This document shows positions 147-40,222 of a stretch of DNA of 64,000 bases, one piece after another (the stretch's first letter is position 1; the number at the start of each line of letters is the position of its first letter). The notes beneath the pieces are model-generated. The model had not been told where the DNA came from. It saw only the letters and a list, made by a program, of their open reading frames with translations, and did not search any database. The stretch is from a virus. The stretch covers positions 15,625 through 79,624 of IMG/VR virus record IMGVR_UViG_3300017788_003020. The stretch is one strand, 5' to 3'. The position numbers and the translations under genes were made by a program.

Positions 147-1367
147 TTATTGGATAACCATCCAATTTGTTCCTGTATACCACAATGTTCTTGATTGACC
201 TGCTGGAATAACAACATTCAAGAATGTATCAATACTCCAAGTAACGCCATTAAGGGTTACAACATTTGCTGTAGAACCATTGTGTATAGTAACCAATTGA
301 CCCATAATTGGATTTGTAATAGTTACCATATTATAGTCTACTGCAACACGGCTAACAATGTAGCGTGATGTATTTGAAAGAGTTGCAGGTGAAATTGTGT
401 GAAGTTGCACAGAACTTGTAAAATGATGTGGATTTACAGCCCATGTGAGACCACTTACACCAGCCATTGCATAAGAACCAATGGTAGCAGAGTTTCCACC
501 ATGAAGAGCGTTCAATTTAACAGAACCATTTTTGAAGTGACTCGCTACAATCACTGAATCTTGAAGATTGCTTGCGATTGAAGAAGTTGCTGAATGCCCT
601 GCATTAAGAGCATATTGTGCTGTATCTGAATGAACAGAGTGATTTGCATTTACAGCATACAGGGAAGAATCAGAACGATAAGAACGACCAGCAGTTCCTG
701 CATAAAATGCGGTATCTGCAATATCTGCTCTTCCTGAACTTGCTGAATATCCTGAAACTTTTGCATAAATTGCAAGAAGAGCTACATCAGAAGTATCAGC
801 AAATGCTGAGTGAACAGAGTGTTTAGAGTTGATTGCAGAATCTGCAATAGAACTACGAACTGAATGAGCGGATTTCACAGAAGAATCTGCTACACCAGAA
901 ACTAAACTTCTTAGTGACAGAACAGATGTATCTGCGATTCCTGCTCGTCTTGCTACAACAGCTCTTTCAGCATTAACTGCATTTTGTGCAAGTTCTGCTT
1001 TGCTACTGAATCTTGAAGAAACAGCATAAGGAACTTTATGCAAAGCAAGTTTTCCAAGAGAAACTCCATTTACATAAGCATAAACAAAGATATTTCCTTG
1101 ATTTCTTGTAAAAATAGAATCTGCAATGTTTTCTAAAAGAACATTAATCATTCCATTATTTACACTAACTGATTTTTCTTCAACATACCAGAATGCTGAT
1201 GTGTTTAAGTGTGAGTTCTCATTAAAAGAACTATCTGCGAGATAAGCTGAAAATTTAATTTCATTGCTAACTCCAGAAGGAACATGTGCTTGATATTGCA
1301 AATCTGTTGTTTGAGCGGACAGATTAACTGCGATAAGCGTAAGAAACGCAATCAAAAAGGTTTTCAT
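147..1367 (-). CDS. Secreted fibre/adhesin-like protein of Bacteroidota type (signal peptide, YQA...VPYA N-domain, Ala-periodic stalk, small beta C-domain)
   Basis: Sec signal MKTFLIAFLTLIAVNLSAQ; LQYQA and KVPYA motifs; repeated ADSA/ADTA/AxxA pattern. Confidence 0.6.
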   Translation of the reverse strand: MKTFLIAFLTLIAVNLSAQTTDLQYQAHVPSGVSNEIKFSAYLADSSFNENSHLNTSAFWYVEEKSVSVNNGMINVLLENIADSIFTRNQGNIFVYAYVNGVSLGKLALHKVPYAVSSRFSSKAELAQNAVNAERAVVARRAGIADTSVLSLRSLVSGVADSSVKSAHSVRSSIADSAINSKHSVHSAFADTSDVALLAIYAKVSGYSASSGRADIADTAFYAGTAGRSYRSDSSLYAVNANHSVHSDTAQYALNAGHSATSSIASNLQDSVIVASHFKNGSVKLNALHGGNSATIGSYAMAGVSGLTWAVNPHHFTSSVQLHTISPATLSNTSRYIVSRVAVDYNMVTITNPIMGQLVTIHNGSTANVVTLNGVTWSIDTFLNVVIPAGQSRTLWYTGTNWMVIQ

Positions 1368-1382
1368 TAAATCCTCGTATTT

Positions 1383-1835
1383 TTAGTTAAAAATGACTCT
1401 TGATGAGTAAACTTTATCGTTTGTTGTGGTGAATGTGATATAAAATACGCCTCTATAAGGAAGAGTGATTTTACGAGCTGACAAATCATATGCATTTGTG
1501 ATGATTGTTCCGTAGATGTCATAAATCAAAATAGACTTAACATCATCCATCATAAAAAATACAGTTTCTTGATTTGTCGGGTTTGGATATACAGTAGAAA
1601 TATATGAAATTTCTTTACCTGAAAAATCTTCAACAGAAGTTGTTAGTCTTCTTGGTATTCTAATTCCAATATGATTTCCATTTTTATATCCTGCTATTAC
1701 CTGACCGATAGTAGCGTTGTTATTACCACCTGTTACTACTTTTTTGAACAAGTCGATGGTATAACATGAATATGTAGTAGTATATGTAACTACACACAGA
1801 AAAAGCGCAATGATATACTTCATTGTGGTCTCCAT
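1383..1835 (-). CDS. Small T9SS type A sorting-domain (CTD) protein
   Basis: Signal peptide (likely start MKYII at 1823); TSVED linker, then VYPNPT, IYDIYG and GVFYI motifs typical of a T9SS CTD. Confidence 0.75.
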   Translation of the reverse strand: METTMKYIIALFLCVVTYTTTYSCYTIDLFKKVVTGGNNNATIGQVIAGYKNGNHIGIRIPRRLTTSVEDFSGKEISYISTVYPNPTNQETVFFMMDDVKSILIYDIYGTIITNAYDLSARKITLPYRGVFYITFTTTNDKVYSSRVIFN

Positions 1836-1972: not shown

Positions 1973-2392
1973 ATGGACTTGATGAACAGAAAATTTACTA
2001 TTAATTTAACTACCCTTATAGGCATAATATCAGCCATATCTACAATTATTGGGGGGTACTGGTATTTCAAAAACACGATAGAAACAACAAGAGATGGTAT
2101 AAAATCAGCAAATGAAAACTACAAAGAACTTAAAAACGAAATACAACTTTTAAGAGAAAGGTTATATGAAATGGCTATTACCTATAATAAAAATGTCCAG
2201 CTTGAAAATGAGATACATCCAGATAAAAAAATCAGAAGAAGTTATACAAAATATGAAGAAGATACTGTTATAACCCCTCCTTTTAGGATGGTTCCTGAAG
2301 AAAAAAGGATAAAACCTGTAATGGATACGATAGACATATCAAAGATAAAGATAAAACCAAATATTCAATTACCTATTAAACTAAAAAAATAA
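1973..2392 (+). CDS. Hypothetical membrane protein (N-terminal TM plus coiled coil)
   Basis: ORF; hydrophobic segment LTTLIGIISAISTIIGGYWYF; GATATATA upstream. Confidence 0.6.
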   Translation: MDLMNRKFTINLTTLIGIISAISTIIGGYWYFKNTIETTRDGIKSANENYKELKNEIQLLRERLYEMAITYNKNVQLENEIHPDKKIRRSYTKYEEDTVITPPFRMVPEEKRIKPVMDTIDISKIKIKPNIQLPIKLKK

Positions 2393-2425
2393 AAAAGCCC
2401 CTAAAAGTATTTATTTAGGGACTTT
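2391..2425. terminator. Bidirectional intrinsic terminator
   Basis: AAAAAAGCCCCTAAA...TTTAGGGACTTT between converging transcripts. Confidence 0.7.
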
Positions 2426-2430
2426 ATATA

Positions 2431-2651
2431 TGGTTGCGCCAGAAACGAAACAACGATATTTAAGTGCAGTGAGAAAAATCTAAGAAAAATCTACACTCAT
2501 CGCAGGGAAAATTACTTTTACCCTTTTCCGCCAAACTATTCTTCTGGATGGACTAAGGAGTTTATATCTTAAAACATAAAAGAACTAAGTTTTAGATATA
2601 AAGGCGGTTTCCATAGCATTAGGAGATTTAATACTCACAAGCTCAATTCCT
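2431..2651 (-). ncRNA. Candidate structured non-coding RNA (~220 nt), family unknown
   Basis: Own promoter (TTTG 2686-2683, TATATTTG 2662-2655) and terminator; no ORF; at least five helices whose G-U pairs and GUAA tetraloop occur only on the minus strand. Confidence 0.6.
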
Positions 2652-2706
2652 GTACAAATATAAAGAACTTTCCAATAAAGTTCAAATTTTTCTGAAAATT
2701 TTATTT

Positions 2707-2737
2707 TTTGTTTTCCCGATTCTTTTTATTAGATTTG
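2707..2737 (+). promoter_or_regulatory. Bacteroidota sigma70-type promoter (TTTG-N19-TAGATTTG)
   Basis: Matches the -33/-7 consensus, upstream of 2799. Confidence 0.75.
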
Positions 2738-2798
2738 TAACAATAGTGATATTAAACGATATTAGTTAAAACATAACGATAATTTAGAGGGTTTATTT

Positions 2799-3689
2799 AT
2801 GATTCAAAACACCAGAATACCTCAAGGGTATGATAGCCTAAAACGCTATAATGAAAGAGAGCAGTATGAAAATGCTATCTTAGACTATTATCACAAAAAC
2901 AAAAATTATCAAAACCTTGTTTTATGTGAAAATGGAGATTTCTTTTATATAGACTATTCTAATAGAGGCAAAGCCTTTGATAGAAAGGATAGTAACTATA
3001 TTGGCTCTATTTATGATGATAAGATAAATTTCGCAACGGCTAAGTTCATCTATGATTATAATTATATGTCAAATTATGATTGGGCAGTAAAACTTAAAAA
3101 GCATATTTCAAGATGGATTGATGAAATAAGAATAAAACAATCAAATAATACAGATTCTGTTTACTTAATGTTCAAACTCCCACAGAATGAAAAGCAATAT
3201 TCTGTTAGATTTTCAGACCATAGCGATAGAAAATTTATCGCAGATTTTAATTTTGCAATTCCTCTTGGTTCAAACTTAAATGGTAAAAATTGGGATGATT
3301 TGATTAATTGGTTTGATTTTTTGCTCAACAACAATATTGTTACCCTTAGTCAGCCTTATTTATACCATGCTACATATGCTCCTTTAATTGAGAGTATTAA
3401 AAGAAATGGGATAGATAGTTCTTTATCTGAATTTAATTGGATAGACTCTAAAATAGGTGTGAATTATCTTTCAAGAGACCCTATGATGGCTTATAATTAC
3501 GCAAAAGTTTCATCTATCGTTCCTGAGTCTTATTTAAGAGATATAGTCGTTTTGACTATTTCTTCAAGTAAATTAGATAAAACTAAGTTGTTTTCGCCGA
3601 CAAATACAACTTGTTTTGATGATAATTCTACGATTGAATGTAGAGATTTCATACCATATGAAAGTATATTAAAAATTGAGAAGTATTGA
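2799..3689 (+). CDS. Protein with a C-terminal ADP-ribosyltransferase-fold (Tpt1/KptA-like) domain
   Basis: YLYHAT..IESIKRNGI, NYLSRDPMMAYNYA, VVLTI and IPYESI pattern; N-terminal part has a VRFSDH motif. Confidence 0.55.
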   Translation: MIQNTRIPQGYDSLKRYNEREQYENAILDYYHKNKNYQNLVLCENGDFFYIDYSNRGKAFDRKDSNYIGSIYDDKINFATAKFIYDYNYMSNYDWAVKLKKHISRWIDEIRIKQSNNTDSVYLMFKLPQNEKQYSVRFSDHSDRKFIADFNFAIPLGSNLNGKNWDDLINWFDFLLNNNIVTLSQPYLYHATYAPLIESIKRNGIDSSLSEFNWIDSKIGVNYLSRDPMMAYNYAKVSSIVPESYLRDIVVLTISSSKLDKTKLFSPTNTTCFDDNSTIECRDFIPYESILKIEKY

Positions 3690-3719
3690 TTTGATATATA
3701 GAGAAAATAAATTTTTCCT

Positions 3720-4421
3720 ATGAAATATATCAAAATCTATGAATCTTGGGTAAATGAAGCAGAAGCCACAAAATTTGATGTAAGTAAGCCACAAGCATAT
3801 CCTATGTTAAAAATAACACAAGGAGAACTTTATACAGGAAATGAAGAAAACTTCAGAAAAACCTTGGCAAGTCTTTATAGCAGAGGTATAGAAAAGAAAG
3901 AAGTCAGTGAGACTGACCCATATGGTGTTATTAATTTTTTTAATATAAAGATAAAGTCAATAGATTCTAAAAAAAACTCAATGTCTTTTAAGTTCGCAAA
4001 AGCCCAACAAGATGTTTCTATAACAACTGAATTGAAAGTTACCGCTGGATTTACAAGCGTGATGAATGAAATGGGATATGATATAAAGTCCGAGTCGGGT
4101 TTAGAACAAATAAAAAATGCTTTTTTAGTTTATCCCAAAGCAACTGATAAATCAAAAGTAATCACAAAATCTGAAGATGGTTCTATAAAAGTATCCACAG
4201 AATCCGCAGTCATAGTAATTTTACCCAAAGAACCTTACGATAAAGAAGACTTAGCTATAAATTTAGATAGTTTATGTATAGCAAAAGGAGAAGCGAAAGA
4301 TTGTGTTGTAGGTCAATCTTCTGCTTATATTGCTCTTGAATTCAAAATTCCAGGTGCATTATCTTCAACTCAATATGGGGATGATAAATTCTTCACAAAG
4401 ACTATATTCAAAAAAGCGTAA
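3720..4421 (+). CDS. Hypothetical protein with capsid-targeting-like N-terminus (MKYIKIYESWVNE)
   Basis: ORF; GATATATA at 3693-3700. Confidence 0.7.
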   Translation: MKYIKIYESWVNEAEATKFDVSKPQAYPMLKITQGELYTGNEENFRKTLASLYSRGIEKKEVSETDPYGVINFFNIKIKSIDSKKNSMSFKFAKAQQDVSITTELKVTAGFTSVMNEMGYDIKSESGLEQIKNAFLVYPKATDKSKVITKSEDGSIKVSTESAVIVILPKEPYDKEDLAINLDSLCIAKGEAKDCVVGQSSAYIALEFKIPGALSSTQYGDDKFFTKTIFKKA

Positions 4422-4437
4422 AAATAATATTACTTAT

Positions 4438-4593
4438 ATGAATTACAATTCTGAATTTGATTTCGAAGATACAGGTGATTTAGTATGTTGGGATACTGTA
4501 TATTATGCAACAACAACTTCAAACAAAAAGATAAATATAGTTTATACACAATCTGAAAAATCTGAACATCCCGTTGAACATAATCAAAAGTAA
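4438..4593 (+). CDS. Small hypothetical protein
   Basis: ATG just after the stop of the previous gene; 51 aa. Confidence 0.4.
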   Translation: MNYNSEFDFEDTGDLVCWDTVYYATTTSNKKINIVYTQSEKSEHPVEHNQK

Positions 4594-4649
4594 CAACTAT
4601 ATTCTGTAAATTGAGTTAATTTCTATAAACAGATTATATTGGTTAATTT

Positions 4650-4919
4650 ATGAAAGTATATGAGCCTCTTTGTTGGATATGGGATGATTATTCAGCATCA
4701 ACTATCGATGTAAAAGAAATGGGTCTTTATTCAACAATAGAACTCGCAAAAGAAAAGATTGAATCTTTCTACAAAGAAATGATGTCTCCCTCGGAAAAGG
4801 TATTAAGGCTAAATGAAGATATAAAAGTCCAAAATGAAGATAGATACAACCTATCTGTATTTACAAATAAATATGAATTTCATTTTAGAGTTATAGAACG
4901 AGAACTCATTTTAGAATGA
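4650..4919 (+). CDS. Hypothetical protein
   Basis: ORF. Confidence 0.6.
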   Translation: MKVYEPLCWIWDDYSASTIDVKEMGLYSTIELAKEKIESFYKEMMSPSEKVLRLNEDIKVQNEDRYNLSVFTNKYEFHFRVIERELILE

Positions 4920-4955
4920 GTCTCTTAGATTAAATCACAGTTAAAGGAAAGCACT

Positions 4956-5207
4956 ATGATGCTTGACATTAAAAATGACCATATGATGCGTATGGAGTTT
5001 GATGAAAATACCCTGTTAAAAATGGGTTTTACTATTTCTTATTTAGGTAAAGAAAATAGTTATACAATATCGACAAAACAAAAGGGAACTCATTTCATCT
5101 TGCAAAAGGATGGAACTTTGCTTGTTCATGATGAATACGATACAATCAAATTAGCTAAGGTAGAAAACTTAGAGGAATTGAATCAGATTATTGGTCTCTT
5201 TTGCTGA
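4956..5207 (+). CDS. Hypothetical protein
   Basis: ORF with AAGGA upstream. Confidence 0.6.
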   Translation: MMLDIKNDHMMRMEFDENTLLKMGFTISYLGKENSYTISTKQKGTHFILQKDGTLLVHDEYDTIKLAKVENLEELNQIIGLFC

Positions 5208-5232
5208 TTTTACTTTACATGTTTTGTAAAAC

Positions 5233-5263
5233 AAAAACCCCAGAATTTCTGGGGTTTTCTTTT
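5233..5263. terminator. Bidirectional intrinsic terminator
   Basis: AAAAACCCCAGAATTTCTGGGGTTTTCTTTT inverted repeat. Confidence 0.8.
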
Positions 5264-5267
5264 AATA

Positions 5268-5474
5268 TTAAAGTATAGAACGAAATGTTCTGAAAACATT
5301 CCAAAAAATCGGAGCATATTTAATGATGATATATGCTGATGTTGAATAATATAATATGGATATAATTATAGATATAACCCTAAGCTTTTTTTCCAAATCG
5401 GGTTTGTTTTTAATACGAATCTCTAAAAAAAGTTTAGCGATTGATATTACTGACAGAAATAACAGTAAAAGCAT
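5268..5474 (-). CDS. Small two-TM membrane protein
   Basis: Two hydrophobic stretches; converges on the terminator. Confidence 0.45.
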   Translation of the reverse strand: MLLLLFLSVISIAKLFLEIRIKNKPDLEKKLRVISIIISILYYSTSAYIIIKYAPIFWNVFRTFRSIL

Positions 5475-5541
5475 GATATTTGATATTTTTAATTTGAACT
5501 TTTCTATTTAGAATATATACCAGCAAACAAATAAAGTTCTT

Positions 5542-5892
5542 ATGAAATCAAAAAAATACATATTTAAGTATGAAGAGTTACATGAAACAATACATAGAAC
5601 TCTTACAAAATTAAAGCTCATAATAACAGCAGAAACAATACTATTCAAAGATAAAGAATTCAGAAATGGACTAAACAATACTTTATACAGAAATGCCCTT
5701 TCTTACAAATTAGTTGAGTCTTACCCTAATAAATTAATATACTCAATTCAAATAGACTACAGTAAATTCAAAATTTTAACTGATTTTTCAAATAACATAA
5801 CAAGAGACATAAATGTAATGTTAGATACAAAAGGATTAAAGGGGGCAGAATCTTCAGTAGACCATCACAGGATTTGGATAAAACTTCCATAA
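5542..5892 (+). CDS. Hypothetical protein
   Basis: ORF; AATATATA at 5512-5519. Confidence 0.6.
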   Translation: MKSKKYIFKYEELHETIHRTLTKLKLIITAETILFKDKEFRNGLNNTLYRNALSYKLVESYPNKLIYSIQIDYSKFKILTDFSNNITRDINVMLDTKGLKGAESSVDHHRIWIKLP

Positions 5893-5960
5893 TTTTTTTT
5901 GAACTAAATCGGCTATTTTTCTATAAATAATAAGTATTAACTTAAAATATAAGGTAAGCT

Positions 5961-6908
5961 ATGCCTCAAGGTTCTTATTTAGATTCCAAATTTTATATTC
6001 TGTTGATTGAAAACAAATACTTTCTAACTTCTGAATTGTATAGAAAGGAAAAACCTCTCGATGAGTTTTTTTCAAATAGATGTTTTTTAACAACTGAGTC
6101 TGATATTATTTCTGCGGTTTCAATCTATAAAAGCATCAAAGATAAAGTTTCAGCTTCTATGTATATGTATACTTATGATTCTGAGGCTATTACAAAATCA
6201 AGAAAAATTCTTGAAGATTTTGAAATAGATAATCTTATGGATAATGTCTTATCTCATTATATCCCTGATGTTTTTTCTTTACAGCCCATAATCAAAGAGA
6301 TTACATTGGAATCTTTAAGAAGCACAGAAATCTATAAAATGCTATGCGAAGCTCATACTTCACCAGAAGGAAATCTATTAGAGAATATTGTAAACTTAGA
6401 AACAACAAATGCTCAAATTTCCTTTTTTAAGTATGCCTTAAATATAATAAAGAATCAAAATATTGAAGGTTGTCTTTTAGAAGTAGGGACAAATAAAGGA
6501 TTCTTTGGATATATTGCTTCAACTATTTTGGGAAAAAGAACTTTGCATACAGTAGATGTAAATATGGAAAGTTCGAAGGTAGTTCCAATTCTTGCAAAAA
6601 TGGGTATGAATGTTATATTTAACTGTGGTGATTCAACACATATATTAAATAACTACACGATAGACGAACCTGTAGCATTTGCTTGGGTAGATGGTGGTCA
6701 TAAATACGAAGAAGCTTTATCTGATTTAAGAAATGCCGCAAGACTTGGGGCAAAATACATTGCTCTGGATGATGTTAAATTTTTCCGTGGTAAAGTAAAT
6801 ACCGCATATATTGATTTCTTGACTGAACATCAAGAATATATGAACATAGATAATCCTTATTGGGAACATGATGATGTTGGAATAGCTTGGTGTAAATTAA
6901 CAGATTAA
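5961..6908 (+). CDS. Class I SAM-dependent methyltransferase (Methyltransf_24-like C-domain)
   Basis: LLEVGTNKG, GDS, WVDGGHKYE, IALDD motifs. Confidence 0.8.
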   Translation: MPQGSYLDSKFYILLIENKYFLTSELYRKEKPLDEFFSNRCFLTTESDIISAVSIYKSIKDKVSASMYMYTYDSEAITKSRKILEDFEIDNLMDNVLSHYIPDVFSLQPIIKEITLESLRSTEIYKMLCEAHTSPEGNLLENIVNLETTNAQISFFKYALNIIKNQNIEGCLLEVGTNKGFFGYIASTILGKRTLHTVDVNMESSKVVPILAKMGMNVIFNCGDSTHILNNYTIDEPVAFAWVDGGHKYEEALSDLRNAARLGAKYIALDDVKFFRGKVNTAYIDFLTEHQEYMNIDNPYWEHDDVGIAWCKLTD

Positions 6909-6909
6909 T

Positions 6910-17183: not shown

Positions 17184-17765
17184 TTATTGGAGTATTTTAT
17201 CAATTATGCCATAATTCAAGGCATCCTGAGGAGACATCCAATTATCTCTATCAGCATCGCTTCTAATTTTGTTTATATCCTGTCCAGTATGTTCAGAAAT
17301 CAAGGAATATAAGGTTTCCCTTATTTTTATCATTTCCTTCGTATAGATTTCAATATCGGAGGCTTGACCATTTGTTCCTCCCAAGGGCTGATGCATCATT
17401 ATTCTTGAATGAGGTAAAGAAAACCTCTTTCCTTTTGCTCCCGCTGTCAATAAAAATTGACCCATAGAGGCGGCAAGACCTACACAAATTGTAGATACAT
17501 CAGGCTTAATATACTGCATTGTATCATAAATAGCCATACCAGCGCTTACGCTCCCTCCTGGGGAATTTATGTAGAGAAATATGTCTTTTGTTGAATCTTC
17601 GGATTGTAAAAACAACATTTGTGCTACAATAAGAGAAGCAATAGTATCATCTACTTGAGTTCCTAAAAAGATGATTCTATCTTTAAGAAGACGTGAATAT
17701 ATGTCATATGACCTTTCTCCACGGGAGGTTTGCTCTATAACATAAGGAACAAGATGTGAATACAT
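17184..17765 (-). CDS. clpP: ATP-dependent Clp protease proteolytic subunit
   Basis: [27 protein letters not shown] (catalytic Ser), MMHQP, DRDNWM. Confidence 0.97.
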
Positions 17766-19216: not shown

Positions 19217-19247
19217 TTTGCAGATATCAGAATTTTCATTATATTTG
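19217..19247 (+). promoter_or_regulatory. Bacteroidota-type promoter of tmRNA
   Basis: TTTG-N19-TATATTTG. Confidence 0.75.
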
Positions 19248-19265
19248 TAATAGTTCATTGAAAAT

Positions 19266-19655
19266 GGGGGTGTCATTGGTTTCGATTGGCTTTTGACGCA
19301 CTAAGAAGCAACCCGTGCTGATACTCGGTGGAGCACGATAATACAACTGAGTAAATCATAAGTGGCAATAATAGCACACATATTTTCAATCAATATCCAT
19401 TGGTTGGAAATACCCAGACACAATACGCAGTAGCGGCTTGAGTCCGAGTGATGTAATTTGTAGCTGTTCTCATTATATCACTCGTCGCCTATAACAGCAT
19501 ATACTATAAAGGGCTTTCACTTTATAGTGAATTTTTGAAAGCAAAAGAATTATCGGCTGTCCTTTGCCTAAATAATTCTTACTATAAAAGGACTATGGTT
19601 GTAGTGGTCTGGTAACTTGATAGTCAAGACGGGGGTTCGAATCCCCCCACCTCCA
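19266..19655 (+). ncRNA. ssrA: tmRNA; predicted tag (A)GNNSTHIFNQYPLVGNTQTQYAVAA
   Basis: Acceptor stem GGGGGTG/CACCTCC-A with a G3:U pair, GGTTTCGA 5' motif, T-arm GGGGG-TTCGAAT-CCCCC, tag ORF 19364-19441 ending YAVAA-stop. Confidence 0.93.
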
Positions 19656-19687
19656 CAATTTTTTATTTTTATTTTAAGGTTAATGTT

Positions 19688-34458: not shown

Positions 34459-35004
34459 ATGATACTAAATGCCAGACAAAACTTATTTGATTTTAGATTC
34501 CCAAAGGGATTTTTCTTTCCAGAAATAGAAGAGAAGTATAAGCCGTATATTAGGGCTTTACCTTTGCCTATTGATAATGTATCAGATTTCATAAATCATA
34601 CAATACAATCATTTAGGATGCCTTCTATATCTGTTCCTTCCGCAGAACAAAGACTAAGTGCAAGAAGAACACTTTGGAGGGGAGGTTTACCTTTTCATTT
34701 ACTAACAGACCAGAAATTCTCCGTTACTTTCAAATTAACTGAAGGTTATGTGAATTATTTCATCATATATGACCAACTTCGTCTATTTCTTGAATTTTCA
34801 AATGAAATAGAATATCTACCTACATGTAAACTTAGGCTATTAGACTATGGTGGAAAAGAATTTGTTTCTATTAGACTTCAACAAATAACCATGGTTGGAA
34901 TAGGAACTCTTGAACTAAGTTTCACATCCGCTTTGCCTCAACAAAGTAATTTTACCTGCGATTTCACATTCAATATTTTTGAATTAGAGAAAGAATATCA
35001 ATAA
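34459..35004 (+). CDS. Tail-tube-fold protein (T4 gp3/gp19/gp54-like)
   Basis: QSFRMPSIS, FSVTFKLTEGYVNY, FTCDFTF pattern; structural context. Confidence 0.55.
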   Translation: MILNARQNLFDFRFPKGFFFPEIEEKYKPYIRALPLPIDNVSDFINHTIQSFRMPSISVPSAEQRLSARRTLWRGGLPFHLLTDQKFSVTFKLTEGYVNYFIIYDQLRLFLEFSNEIEYLPTCKLRLLDYGGKEFVSIRLQQITMVGIGTLELSFTSALPQQSNFTCDFTFNIFELEKEYQ

Positions 35005-39466: not shown

Positions 39467-39646
39467 ATGAATTATCTTGAATTATTCGAAAAATGGTCTG
39501 AAAAATACAAGAAGAGCATAAATTGCAAAAACCCCAAGGGATTTTCTCAAAGGGCTCACTGTGCAGGAAGGAAAAAGAAAGCTCGTAAAAAATTGAAGAA
39601 TTATGAGTCTTGGGTTATAGAAAATTATTATCTAAAGCAAACTTGA
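39467..39646 (+). CDS. 59-aa basic protein with the KWSEKYKKSINCKNPKGFSQRAHCAGRKK motif (not in the ORF track)
   Basis: Translated by hand; motif I recognise from T4-like/jumbo phage hypothetical proteins; GATATATA at 39436-39443. Confidence 0.75.
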   Translation: MNYLELFEKWSEKYKKSINCKNPKGFSQRAHCAGRKKKARKKLKNYESWVIENYYLKQT

Positions 39647-40222
39647 TATATTAGAATTACTCTTATTTAATCCCGTAGTTTTACTTAATAATGGTGTTAT
39701 ATCAACTACAGCCCCATATTCAATAAATACATCAAAAAATTTAGAATAATTATCACCCCAGTATGTCATGGCACAAGCCATAGGAGCGCCCTTTCCAACA
39801 TCTTTTCCATTTTCTAAAAAGCGCAGTCTTGTATCATATAGAAAACATATAGATTTAGCCTTACTAAAAACATAATTTTTCCAATGGGATGTATTAGAAG
39901 CAACAGGTATTAGTGCTAAAACTTCTGAATTATATTTTTCATTGGCAAACGCACACTTTTCAAGCCAATGCTTAATAGATGTTTTTCTAATTTTGTCTAT
40001 ACCATATGGGGGATTGACATAGATTGATGGATAATTCCATTGCTCTTTAAGTCCATCATGTTTAGGTAGTCTATATTCAACAATAGCATTTACTATTGAG
40101 TATTCATTAGAACATGGGTCTAAGTGTATTTTACCGCCAAAAAATTTTCTTACAGCGTTTACATATTTTTCAGGCGTGCCCCAACTTTGACTTTTAGTAT
40201 TTATTTTTCGACCTGCACTCAT
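39632..40222 (-). CDS. Phage N6-adenine DNA methyltransferase
   Basis: WGTP, LDPCS, NPPY, LIP..SNTSHW, RLRF. Confidence 0.85.
   Translation of the reverse strand: MSAGRKINTKSQSWGTPEKYVNAVRKFFGGKIHLDPCSNEYSIVNAIVEYRLPKHDGLKEQWNYPSIYVNPPYGIDKIRKTSIKHWLEKCAFANEKYNSEVLALIPVASNTSHWKNYVFSKAKSICFLYDTRLRFLENGKDVGKGAPMACAMTYWGDNYSKFFDVFIEYGAVVDITPLLSKTTGLNKSNSNISSLL

What the first reader, a model, noticed from the sequence alone, without database searches (positions are those of the whole stretch)
2431..2651. Stand-alone ~220-nt structured ncRNA of unknown family with a tandem-repeat loop
This ORF-free interval has its own host-type promoter (TTTG-N20-TATATTTG, minus), overlapped by a GAAC-N16-TTATAT element, and ends at a terminator. 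Helices visible (plus coordinates): 2615-21/2629-35; 2528-32/2603-07 enclosing 2561-75/2589-2602; a GUAA-capped hairpin at 2504-2524; and 2453-57/2499-2503 extended by 2462-69/2491-98. A pseudoknot 2548-52/2610-14 is possible. G-U pairs and the GNRA loop form only on the minus strand, matching the promoter. The last loop region carries an 11-nt direct repeat (UAGAUUUUUCU x2, 2472-2493), and the structured part ends ...GGCGCAACCA. It is not a tRNA or tmRNA and lacks RNase P hallmarks. Function is inference only: a protein/RNAP decoy, an anti-defence sponge, or a repeat-template RNA.
Basis: partly seen in the sequence, partly recalled or inferred. Interest (0 to 1): 0.78.

Follow-up and report, generated by a model that had tools for sequence, protein, structure and literature searches.

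The report
Orphan small-RNA gene candidate in jumbo phage
A 400-base gene-free gap in a large phage of Bacteroidota has its own host-type promoter and terminator and probably makes a ~255-nt non-coding RNA. Its fold is no better than chance, no relative carries it, and its function is untested, so it is a plausible but ordinary phage small-RNA candidate.

Summary
The sequence features are real. The minus strand of 2394-2686 has an exact Bacteroidota promoter (TTTG-N20-TATATTTG), no ORF of 30 aa or more, the helices and the 11-nt tandem repeat described, and a strong terminator whose U-tract lies on the minus strand. The same -7 box drives the phage's own tmRNA. The gap is the second largest ORF-free stretch in the 79.6-kb record, and it is GC-richer than other gaps.

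The "structured RNA" part is not supported statistically. Without the terminator the fold has z = -1.35, and the opposite strand gives -1.38. No Rfam family matches, even at E up to 10, and there is no tRNA or tmRNA here.

No homologue was found:
- GenBank phages
- ten related IMG/VR records, one of them complete (BLAST and a covariance model)
- two IMG/VR pattern scans
- 151 genomes sampled from one bacterial phylum (one draw)

The closest syntenic relative keeps the tmRNA at 84% nt identity but lacks the whole 2393-6909 island. Covariation therefore could not be tested. The tool that could fetch the closer relatives' DNA (look-up of encoding contigs) was closed.

A 67-codon frame interrupted only by two TAGs was tested as a recoded gene and rejected.

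Best reading: an early, stand-alone, orphan sRNA gene of the Bacteroidota intergenic-sRNA type on a variable island (confidence 0.45). The same stretch was flagged once more by this scan, in an overlapping window of the same genome.

The parts
2683..2686 (-). -33 element TTTG of a Bacteroidota-type promoter
   Evidence: Read. Exact-motif scan (13 copies against 2.2 expected).
2655..2662 (-). -7 element TATATTTG, 20 nt downstream of the -33 element. It is the same -7 box as the tmRNA promoter at 19217-19247.
2658..2683 (-). Overlapping GAAC-N16-TTATAT. This is a near match to the phage motif GAAC-N16-nTATAA; the last base differs.
   Evidence: the strict motif occurs 8 times against 2.1 in shuffles. 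This copy matches only the relaxed form.
2427..2651 (-). Predicted RNA body of about 225 nt. The 5' end is inferred from the promoter, not measured.
   Evidence: No ORF of 30 aa or more. GC 0.348.
2613..2637 (-). Hairpin 1: 7 bp, pairing 2615-21 with 2629-35.
   Evidence: Pairing probability 0.63-0.70. -4.0 kcal/mol.
2561..2602 (-). Long A-U-rich hairpin. A possible 5-bp helix, 2528-32 with 2603-07, encloses it.
   Evidence: I4; -10.1 kcal/mol.
2504..2524 (-). GUAA-capped hairpin (GGG-U-AAAA / UUUU-CCC).
   Evidence: -6.2 kcal/mol.
2453..2503 (-). Hairpin of 5 + 8 bp with a 21-nt loop.
   Evidence: Pairing probability 0.60-0.97. -10.9 kcal/mol.
2472..2493 (-). Tandem 11-nt repeat UAGAUUUUUCU x2. 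It fills most of the 21-nt loop and runs into the stem.
   Evidence: D4, 100% identical copies.
2427..2446 (-). 3' strand of a weak closing stem (2440-2446 pairs with 2646-2652), then the single-stranded tail GCGCAACCAUAUA.
   Evidence: MFE and centroid structures.
2394..2425 (-). Intrinsic terminator: 12-bp stem, 8-nt loop, then a U-tract that runs into the last codons of the convergent gene 1973-2392.
   Evidence: -15.1 kcal/mol, z -4.5.
2707..2737 (+). Back-to-back divergent promoter TTTG-N19-TAGATTTG of the 296-aa gene (2799-3689).

Best explanation
This is a stand-alone small-RNA gene.

How it is made. Host RNA polymerase with the Bacteroidota primary sigma factor starts at about 2650 on the minus strand. 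It stops at the intrinsic terminator at 2425-2394 and gives a primary transcript of about 255 nt that encodes no protein. Because the promoter is host-type, the RNA should be made early, together with the divergent 296-aa gene.

Where it sits. The gene lies on a roughly 4.5-kb island (2393-6909) that the nearest syntenic relative lacks. It is therefore accessory cargo, not core machinery.

How it most likely works (inferred, not shown). It would act like the intergenic sRNAs of Bacteroidota, which are AT-rich, about 35% GC and only loosely folded. It would bind targets through exposed U-rich segments: the 21-nt loop carrying UAGAUUUUUCU twice, and the 3' tail. Those segments could pair with the A-rich leaders of host or phage mRNAs.

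Shown versus inferred. Shown: the signals, the lack of coding capacity and the lack of any family match. Inferred: that the RNA accumulates, its ends and its targets.
For: - The promoter matches the consensus exactly and is rare: 13 copies against 2.2 expected. Only three are intergenic and point at something, and one of those drives the confirmed tmRNA with the same -7 box.
- The terminator has its strong U-tract on the minus strand.
- There is no ORF of 30 aa or more.
- This is the second largest ORF-free gap, and its GC of 0.348 is like the tmRNA gap (0.365) and unlike ordinary spacers (0.19-0.30).
[quoted passage not shown] Their mean GC was about 35%, several looked unstructured, and GibS pairs with translation-initiation regions (PMC7366714, read).
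- Codon scoring and protein searches give no support for a coding reading.
Against: - Fold stability of the body is at chance level and equal on both strands.
- No homologue was found anywhere searched.
- The syntenic relative G006 keeps the tmRNA at 84% nt identity but has no counterpart of this RNA or its island. There is thus no evidence of purifying selection.
- The terminator may exist partly for the convergent gene.
- GC of 0.348 is also close to the record's overall GC (0.319, 90% coding), so it is equally what a decayed gene would show.
Confidence: 0.45

Rival explanations
1. Relic cassette. A promoter and terminator remain from an accessory gene whose ORF has decayed or been deleted. 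The interval may be transcribed but has no function of its own.
For: - It lies on a variable island that the nearest syntenic relative lacks.
- No conservation is detectable.
- The fold is at chance level.
- GC is close to the record's overall GC, which is 90% coding.
- One frame, ATG 2614 to TAA 2411, has only two in-frame stops.
Against: - That frame's codon score (-0.087) is at the 1st percentile of real genes, and 20% of off-frame windows do as well.
- The read-through protein has no homologue among 1.84 billion representatives; the three hits are repeat artefacts.
- tblastx against the syntenic relative found nothing.
- The promoter is still a perfect consensus and the terminator is intact.
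Confidence: 0.25
2. The signals act only in cis or at the DNA level. The hairpin is the terminator of the convergent spanin-like gene. The minus-strand promoter is then either a chance match or drives a short transcript whose role is transcriptional interference with, or insulation of, the convergent lysis gene and the divergent promoter.
For: - The hairpin is also scored as a plus-strand terminator directly after the stop codon of 1973-2392.
- Ten of the 13 exact promoter motifs lie inside ORFs, so matches without an obvious function do occur.
- The two promoters are back to back within 50 nt.
Against: - The U-tract is much better on the minus strand (TTTTTTATTTTTTT) than on the plus strand (ACTTTATATA).
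- About 225 nt of GC-enriched sequence between promoter and terminator is unnecessary for either role.
Confidence: 0.15
3. A small protein gene. Either it is a 67-aa protein read through two TAG codons (TAG as sense, as in recoded Bacteroidota phages), or one of the 16-24-aa micro-ORFs is translated.
For: - ATG 2614 lies about 36 nt after the predicted start.
- The frame's only internal stops are two TAGs, and it ends with TAA inside the terminator.
- TAG ends only 3 of 80 ORFs.
Against: - Reading TAG as sense changes coding density only from 0.900 to 0.902, and no large gene contains an in-frame TAG.
- There is no suppressor tRNA in the 79.6 kb held.
- The codon score is at the 1st percentile of real genes.
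- There are no homologues.
- By my own calculation from base composition (not a tool result), a 66-codon frame free of TAA and TGA has a chance of about 2% per frame, or about 6% over the three minus frames.
Confidence: 0.07
4. A very diverged member of a known RNA class (6S-like RNA polymerase decoy, tRNA-like decoy, RNase P-like RNA) that the family models miss.
For: - The loop repeat UAGAUUUU resembles the host -7 element TAnnTTTG, and it resembles the neighbour's promoter segment at 2723-2736 (I3).
- The tail ends in ACCA.
Against: - No Rfam model reaches E 10 on a 551-nt search except terminator-driven noise.
- ARAGORN finds nothing here.
- The predicted shape is a multi-branch junction, not a 6S rod with a central bubble.
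- No 7-bp acceptor stem can be formed with the bases before ACCA (reading).
Confidence: 0.05

Closest known systems
Intergenic trans-acting sRNAs of Bacteroidota, e.g. GibS of Bacteroides thetaiotaomicron (PMC7366714)
   Same: Its own promoter of the TTTG/TAnnTTTG type plus an intrinsic terminator; intergenic; no ORF; about 35% GC; loosely structured with exposed AU-rich segments; sits next to a gene it might regulate.
   Different: It is carried by a phage rather than a chromosome and has no sequence similarity. Expression, conservation and targets are all untested. At about 255 nt it is a fairly long primary transcript.
Phage-encoded stand-alone small RNAs of unknown or regulatory function (T4 species 1/2 'RNA C/D', prophage sRNAs such as DicF and AgvB) - from general knowledge, not tested here
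   Same: Small non-coding transcripts carried by phage genomes as accessory cargo, often lineage-specific.
   Different: No homology. Those RNAs were found as transcripts, whereas this one is only a prediction from sequence signals.
6S RNA (Rfam RF00013 and the Flavobacteria/Bacteroidales variants)
   Same: About 200 nt, with 5' and 3' ends predicted to pair.
   Different: No model match. The predicted structure is a branched junction rather than a rod with a central bubble.
Type III toxin-antitoxin RNA (ToxI-like repeats)
   Same: Tandem direct repeats inside a non-coding transcript, followed by a terminator.
   Different: There are only two copies of 11 nt, against several copies of roughly 36 nt. 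No toxin gene lies downstream on the same strand; the next gene is convergent.

Membership tests
Any Rfam 15 family (including 6S, RNase P, SRP, tmRNA, Bacteroidales-1, Flavo-1, ribozymes, riboswitches) | Score at or above the family's gathering threshold | tested here: not met
   the only match in the window is the tmRNA at 19266-19658; at E up to 10 on 2300-2850 there are only six matches of 17-19 bits, all centred on the terminator.
tRNA / tmRNA | Cloverleaf or tRNA-like domain recognised by ARAGORN | tested here: not met
   one gene in 64 kb, the tmRNA at 19266-19656, and nothing at 2394-2652.
Bacteroidota-type intergenic sRNA | Own promoter (TTTG, 19-21 nt, TAnnTTTG) and intrinsic terminator, intergenic, no ORF | tested here: met
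   The criteria are as used in PMC7366714.
Bacteroidota-type intergenic sRNA | Detectable discrete transcript | not testable with these tools
   No transcriptome is available for this uncultured phage.
Bacteroidota-type intergenic sRNA | Sequence or promoter conservation among relatives | tested here: not met
   No counterpart in ten related IMG/VR records. G006 keeps the tmRNA at 84% identity but lacks the island. The closer relatives (84-95% aa) could not be fetched.
Structured ncRNA (in the sense of a conserved fold) | Fold more stable than shuffled sequence, and covariation in the helices | tested here: not met
   z = -1.35 for the minus strand and -1.38 for the plus strand. Covariation is untestable because there are no homologues.
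6S RNA | Long rod with a central open-promoter-like bubble | tested here: not met
   MFE and centroid structures are a multi-branch junction. No Rfam 6S match.
Type III TA antitoxin RNA | Array of repeats of about 34-45 nt, directly upstream of a toxin gene on the same strand | tested here: not met
   Two 11-nt copies only. The next gene downstream is on the opposite strand.
TAG-recoded protein gene | In-frame TAG in many (late) genes, a suppressor tRNA, and a coding-like codon profile | tested here: not met
   (codon score at the 1st percentile). (no real homologues).

The most novel reading that the evidence does not exclude
The RNA is an early phage decoy or partner RNA. In one version its 21-nt loop displays two tandem copies of a host -7-promoter-like motif (UAGAUUUU) and titrates the host primary sigma factor or another nucleic-acid-binding protein. 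That would be a 6S-like outcome reached with a different architecture. In the other version it is the RNA partner or substrate of the divergently co-transcribed 296-aa protein. The only functional leads for that protein are weak ADP-ribosyltransferase (PARP / Tox-ART) look-alikes, so the analogy would be to RNA-linked ADP-ribosylation by T4 ModB.
Probability: 0.05. Interest if true: 0.8.

Novelty: new member of a known kind. Interest (0 to 1): 0.33.

Why it matters
If it is real, it would be one of the first small RNAs proposed for a jumbo phage of Bacteroidota. It would be transcribed by the host polymerase from the same promoter type as the phage's tmRNA and carried on a strain-variable island next to a possible host-takeover enzyme. 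That would give a handle on RNA-based host manipulation in a phylum that lacks Hfq and ProQ. As it stands it is a single-sequence prediction with no sign of conservation, so its present value is as a target for transcriptomics, not as a discovery.

Tried and rejected
1. Rfam at the gathering threshold and at E up to 10: nothing.
2. blastn against 50,697 GenBank phages: no match. tblastn of both flanking proteins against the same set: no match.
3. Flanking proteins as bait in IMG/VR, JGI metagenomes and GTDB genomes. The only syntenic hit is L017/G006, and the locus there holds different genes. L015 and L016 are cut on the wrong side.
This was the most promising route.
5. BLAST and covariance model R1 over ten related records, the phage's own record, and 151 genomes drawn from one bacterial phylum. 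The tool did not name the phylum; the centre was an Ignavibacteria MAG. Only the query itself and two chance hits (E 0.03 and 0.07 per genome) came back.
6. Two DNA-pattern scans of IMG/VR: only random hits. The five hits of the first scan were in GC-rich contigs, and model R1 matched none of the seven hits of the second.
7. Searching the protein collection for spurious ORFs called over the interval in relatives: nothing.
8. Reading TAG as Q: rejected.
9. Pseudogene remnants by tblastx against the relative: nothing.
10. Antisense targets. An 11-nt plus a 9-nt complementarity to the neighbour's 5' UTR is unusual by shuffling (6 of 2000) but ranks 25th of 81 by co-folding energy, so it is kept only as a lead. 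Unconstrained duplexfold was uninformative.
11. Replication origin: no skew turning point is visible at this position at 2-kb resolution, and there are only two iteron-like copies.
12. AlphaFold2 of the 296-aa neighbour: pLDDT 47.7, unusable.
13. ClpP as bait to find a host lineage: too conserved, with hits across several phyla.

Full report
**What the window is.** The window is bases 15625-79624 of a 79.6-kb IMG/VR virus record that CheckV rates 32% complete, so the genome is about 250 kb. A conserved 1161-aa protein links it, at 31% identity or less, to jumbo phages of Tenacibaculum, Flavobacterium, Chryseobacterium and Prevotella (Lak) and to Sphingomonas phage PAU. The window carries a full-length tmRNA at 19266-19658 (126.9 bits; ARAGORN) and ClpP/ClpC genes.

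**Checking the observation.** Between the stop of a spanin-like gene (1973-2392, plus strand; PHROG 739) and the start of a 296-aa gene of unknown family (2799-3689, plus strand) lie 406 nt with no ORF of 30 aa or more on either strand.
- The minus strand reads TTTG (2686-2683), 20 nt, TATATTTG (2662-2655). About 225 nt follow, and then a hairpin of 12 pairs (2425-2394) followed by TTTTTTATTTTTTT.
- The overlapping GAAC-N16-TTATAT is present, but its last base differs from the enriched phage motif GAAC-N16-nTATAA, which occurs 8 times against 2.1 expected.

**Is it more than chance?** For the transcription signals, yes.
- The exact Bacteroidota consensus (TTTG, 19-21 nt, TAnnTTTG; consensus as cited in PMC7366714) occurs 13 times in the record, against 2.2 in shuffles.
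- Only three copies are intergenic and aimed at something. One aims at this interval. One lies back to back with it and serves the 296-aa gene (2707-2737). One lies in front of the tmRNA (19217-19247) and has the identical -7 box TATATTTG. The confirmed RNA gene of this phage therefore uses the same promoter type.
- The gap is the second largest ORF-free stretch after the tmRNA gap. Its core GC of 0.348 resembles the tmRNA gap (0.365), not ordinary spacers at 0.19-0.30.
- The terminator's U-tract is far better on the minus strand, although the tool also scores a weaker plus-strand reading that would serve the convergent gene.

**For the structure, no.**
- With the terminator included the fold has z = -2.7.
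- The body alone (2427-2652) gives -48.3 kcal/mol and z = -1.35, with 24 of 200 shuffles folding as well.
- The opposite strand gives z = -1.38.
- Single hairpins have z of -2 to -4, but they were chosen after the fact.
- The proposed pseudoknot is five complementary bases with low pairing probability.

**Family membership.** Rfam gives nothing at the gathering threshold. At E up to 10 it gives nothing but terminator-driven noise. ARAGORN finds nothing here.

**The hunt for homologues.** This decides between a conserved RNA and an orphan, so most of the effort went here.
- GenBank phages: no nucleotide match and no match to either flanking protein.
- The 296-aa protein has only six relatives in 5.8 billion clusters, all from Logan or ENA assemblies.
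- Scans with an alignment of those proteins gave only two loci, both cut on the wrong side.
- The 406-aa protein at 147-1367 has many relatives. An alignment of 28 of them recovered five IMG/VR loci.
- One of those, L017 (record G006), is truly syntenic. It has the 406-aa, 150-aa and spanin-like genes at 67, 54-55 and 54% identity. Beyond the spanin gene its content differs, and it has no similarity to the interval.
- A whole-record comparison shows that G006 shares genes with this phage at 26-86% aa identity (most at 50-85%), but has no counterpart for anything in 2393-6909: the RNA, the 296-aa and 233-aa genes, several small ORFs and a methyltransferase.
- G006 does keep the tmRNA, at 84% nucleotide identity over 415 nt. 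A conserved RNA would therefore have been easy to see at this divergence.
- BLAST and a covariance model built from the sequence and its centroid structure (R1) found nothing in ten related records, one of them 100% complete. They found no second copy in the phage's own record.
- Among 151 genomes drawn from one bacterial phylum, the model found only two chance-level hits. The tool did not name the phylum; the centre was an Ignavibacteria MAG.
- Two pattern scans of IMG/VR gave only random matches.
- The result is that the RNA is an orphan in everything I could reach. Covariation is untested.

**Is it really non-coding?**
- The frame from ATG 2614 to TAA 2411 has only two in-frame stops, and both are TAG. 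That raised the possibility of a TAG-recoded gene, as is known in some phages of Bacteroidota.
- Reading TAG as sense changes coding density only from 0.900 to 0.902, and no large gene contains an in-frame TAG.
- No suppressor tRNA is present in the 79.6 kb held.
- The frame's codon score is at the 1st percentile of real genes.
- The read-through protein has no real homologue among 1.84 billion representatives; the three hits are repeat artefacts.
- tblastx against the relative found no gene remnant. A 55-codon open stretch on the other strand has no relatives in the protein collection.

**How it most likely works.** The signals fit a stand-alone gene transcribed early by the host polymerase.
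- In Bacteroides thetaiotaomicron, eight of the nine validated intergenic sRNAs had both a start site and an intrinsic terminator. The class averages about 35% GC and several members look unstructured. GibS acts through extended single-stranded seeds on translation-initiation regions, without Hfq or ProQ (PMC7366714). This interval fits that profile better than it fits a rigid, structured RNA.
- I therefore commit, at 0.45, to an accessory regulatory sRNA whose exposed U-rich segments (the repeat loop and the 3' tail) are its working surface.
- One lead is that 2569-2579 and 2452-2460 are perfectly complementary to adjacent segments (2766-2776 and 2755-2763) of the neighbour's 5' UTR. Only 6 of 2000 shuffled RNAs match that coverage. 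By co-folding energy, however, that UTR ranks only 25th of 81, so it remains a lead.
- The neighbour's function is unknown. The AlphaFold2 model is unusable, and the ESM Atlas gives only sub-threshold ADP-ribosyltransferase look-alikes.

**Rivals.**
- A relic cassette that has lost its ORF: 0.25.
- Purely cis or DNA-level roles for the promoter and terminator: 0.15.
- A small protein: 0.07.
- A diverged member of a known RNA class: 0.05.

**Verdict.** The interpretation as a stand-alone ncRNA of no known family is reasonable but unproven. It would be a new member of a known kind, phage-borne small RNAs. Interest is moderate to low until a transcript or conservation is shown.

Noticed in passing
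window 2393-6909: This whole segment has no counterpart in the related record G006, which otherwise shares most genes at 50-85% aa identity. It holds the RNA candidate, the 296-aa and 233-aa genes, several small ORFs and a methyltransferase (5961-6908, PF13578). It looks like a variable accessory island.
   Followed up: partly
window 19217-19658; L034 4785-5174: The phage tmRNA (25-aa tag ending YAVAA) has an exact host-type promoter, TTTG-N19-TATATTTG. It is conserved in relative G006 at 84% nt identity, with tag GKNTHIFNHYPMVEVSQNQYAIAA.
   Followed up: partly
window 2755-2776 (+) against 2452-2460 and 2569-2579 (-): Two adjacent segments of the 296-aa gene's 5' UTR are perfectly complementary (9 nt and 11 nt) to two separate parts of the candidate RNA. 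Only 6 of 2000 shuffles match that coverage, but co-folding energy ranks the UTR 25th of 81.
   Followed up: partly
window 2499-2518 (-) and 34943-34962 (+): 19 of 20 nt are identical between the GUAA-hairpin region of the candidate and the sense strand near the 3' end of gene 34459-35004 (E 0.003 within the record). The match is same-sense, so it is not an antisense site. It may be chance.
   Followed up: no
L017 1966-2402: In relative G006, two small ORFs beyond the spanin homologue, lies a 437-nt ORF-free stretch. It has several long perfect hairpins and one terminator. The 291-nt core (2045-2335) folds at -63.9 kcal/mol with z -2.1. It has no Rfam match and is unrelated in sequence to the candidate.
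   Followed up: partly
window 5356-5892 and 39482-40222: TAG ends only 3 of 80 ORFs. ORFs 5356-5511 and 5542-5892 are in the same frame and separated by one TAG. Gene 39632-40222 would gain 50 codons if its TAG were read through. There is no other sign of recoding.
   Followed up: partly
window 1891, 5901, 13147, 17866, 23960, 46583 and others: The motif GAAC-N16-nTATAA occurs 8 times against 2.1 in shuffles, mostly in front of genes.
   Followed up: partly
window 17184-17765: The nearest cellular relatives of the phage ClpP among GTDB species genomes (about 62-71% aa) are spread over Bacillota, Ignavibacteria and Proteobacteria rather than Bacteroidota.
   Followed up: no
window 147-1835: The 406-aa secreted fibre-like protein has more than 235 relatives, and its partner carries a T9SS C-terminal domain. 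The pair recurs in five IMG/VR phage records at 45-67% identity.
   Followed up: partly
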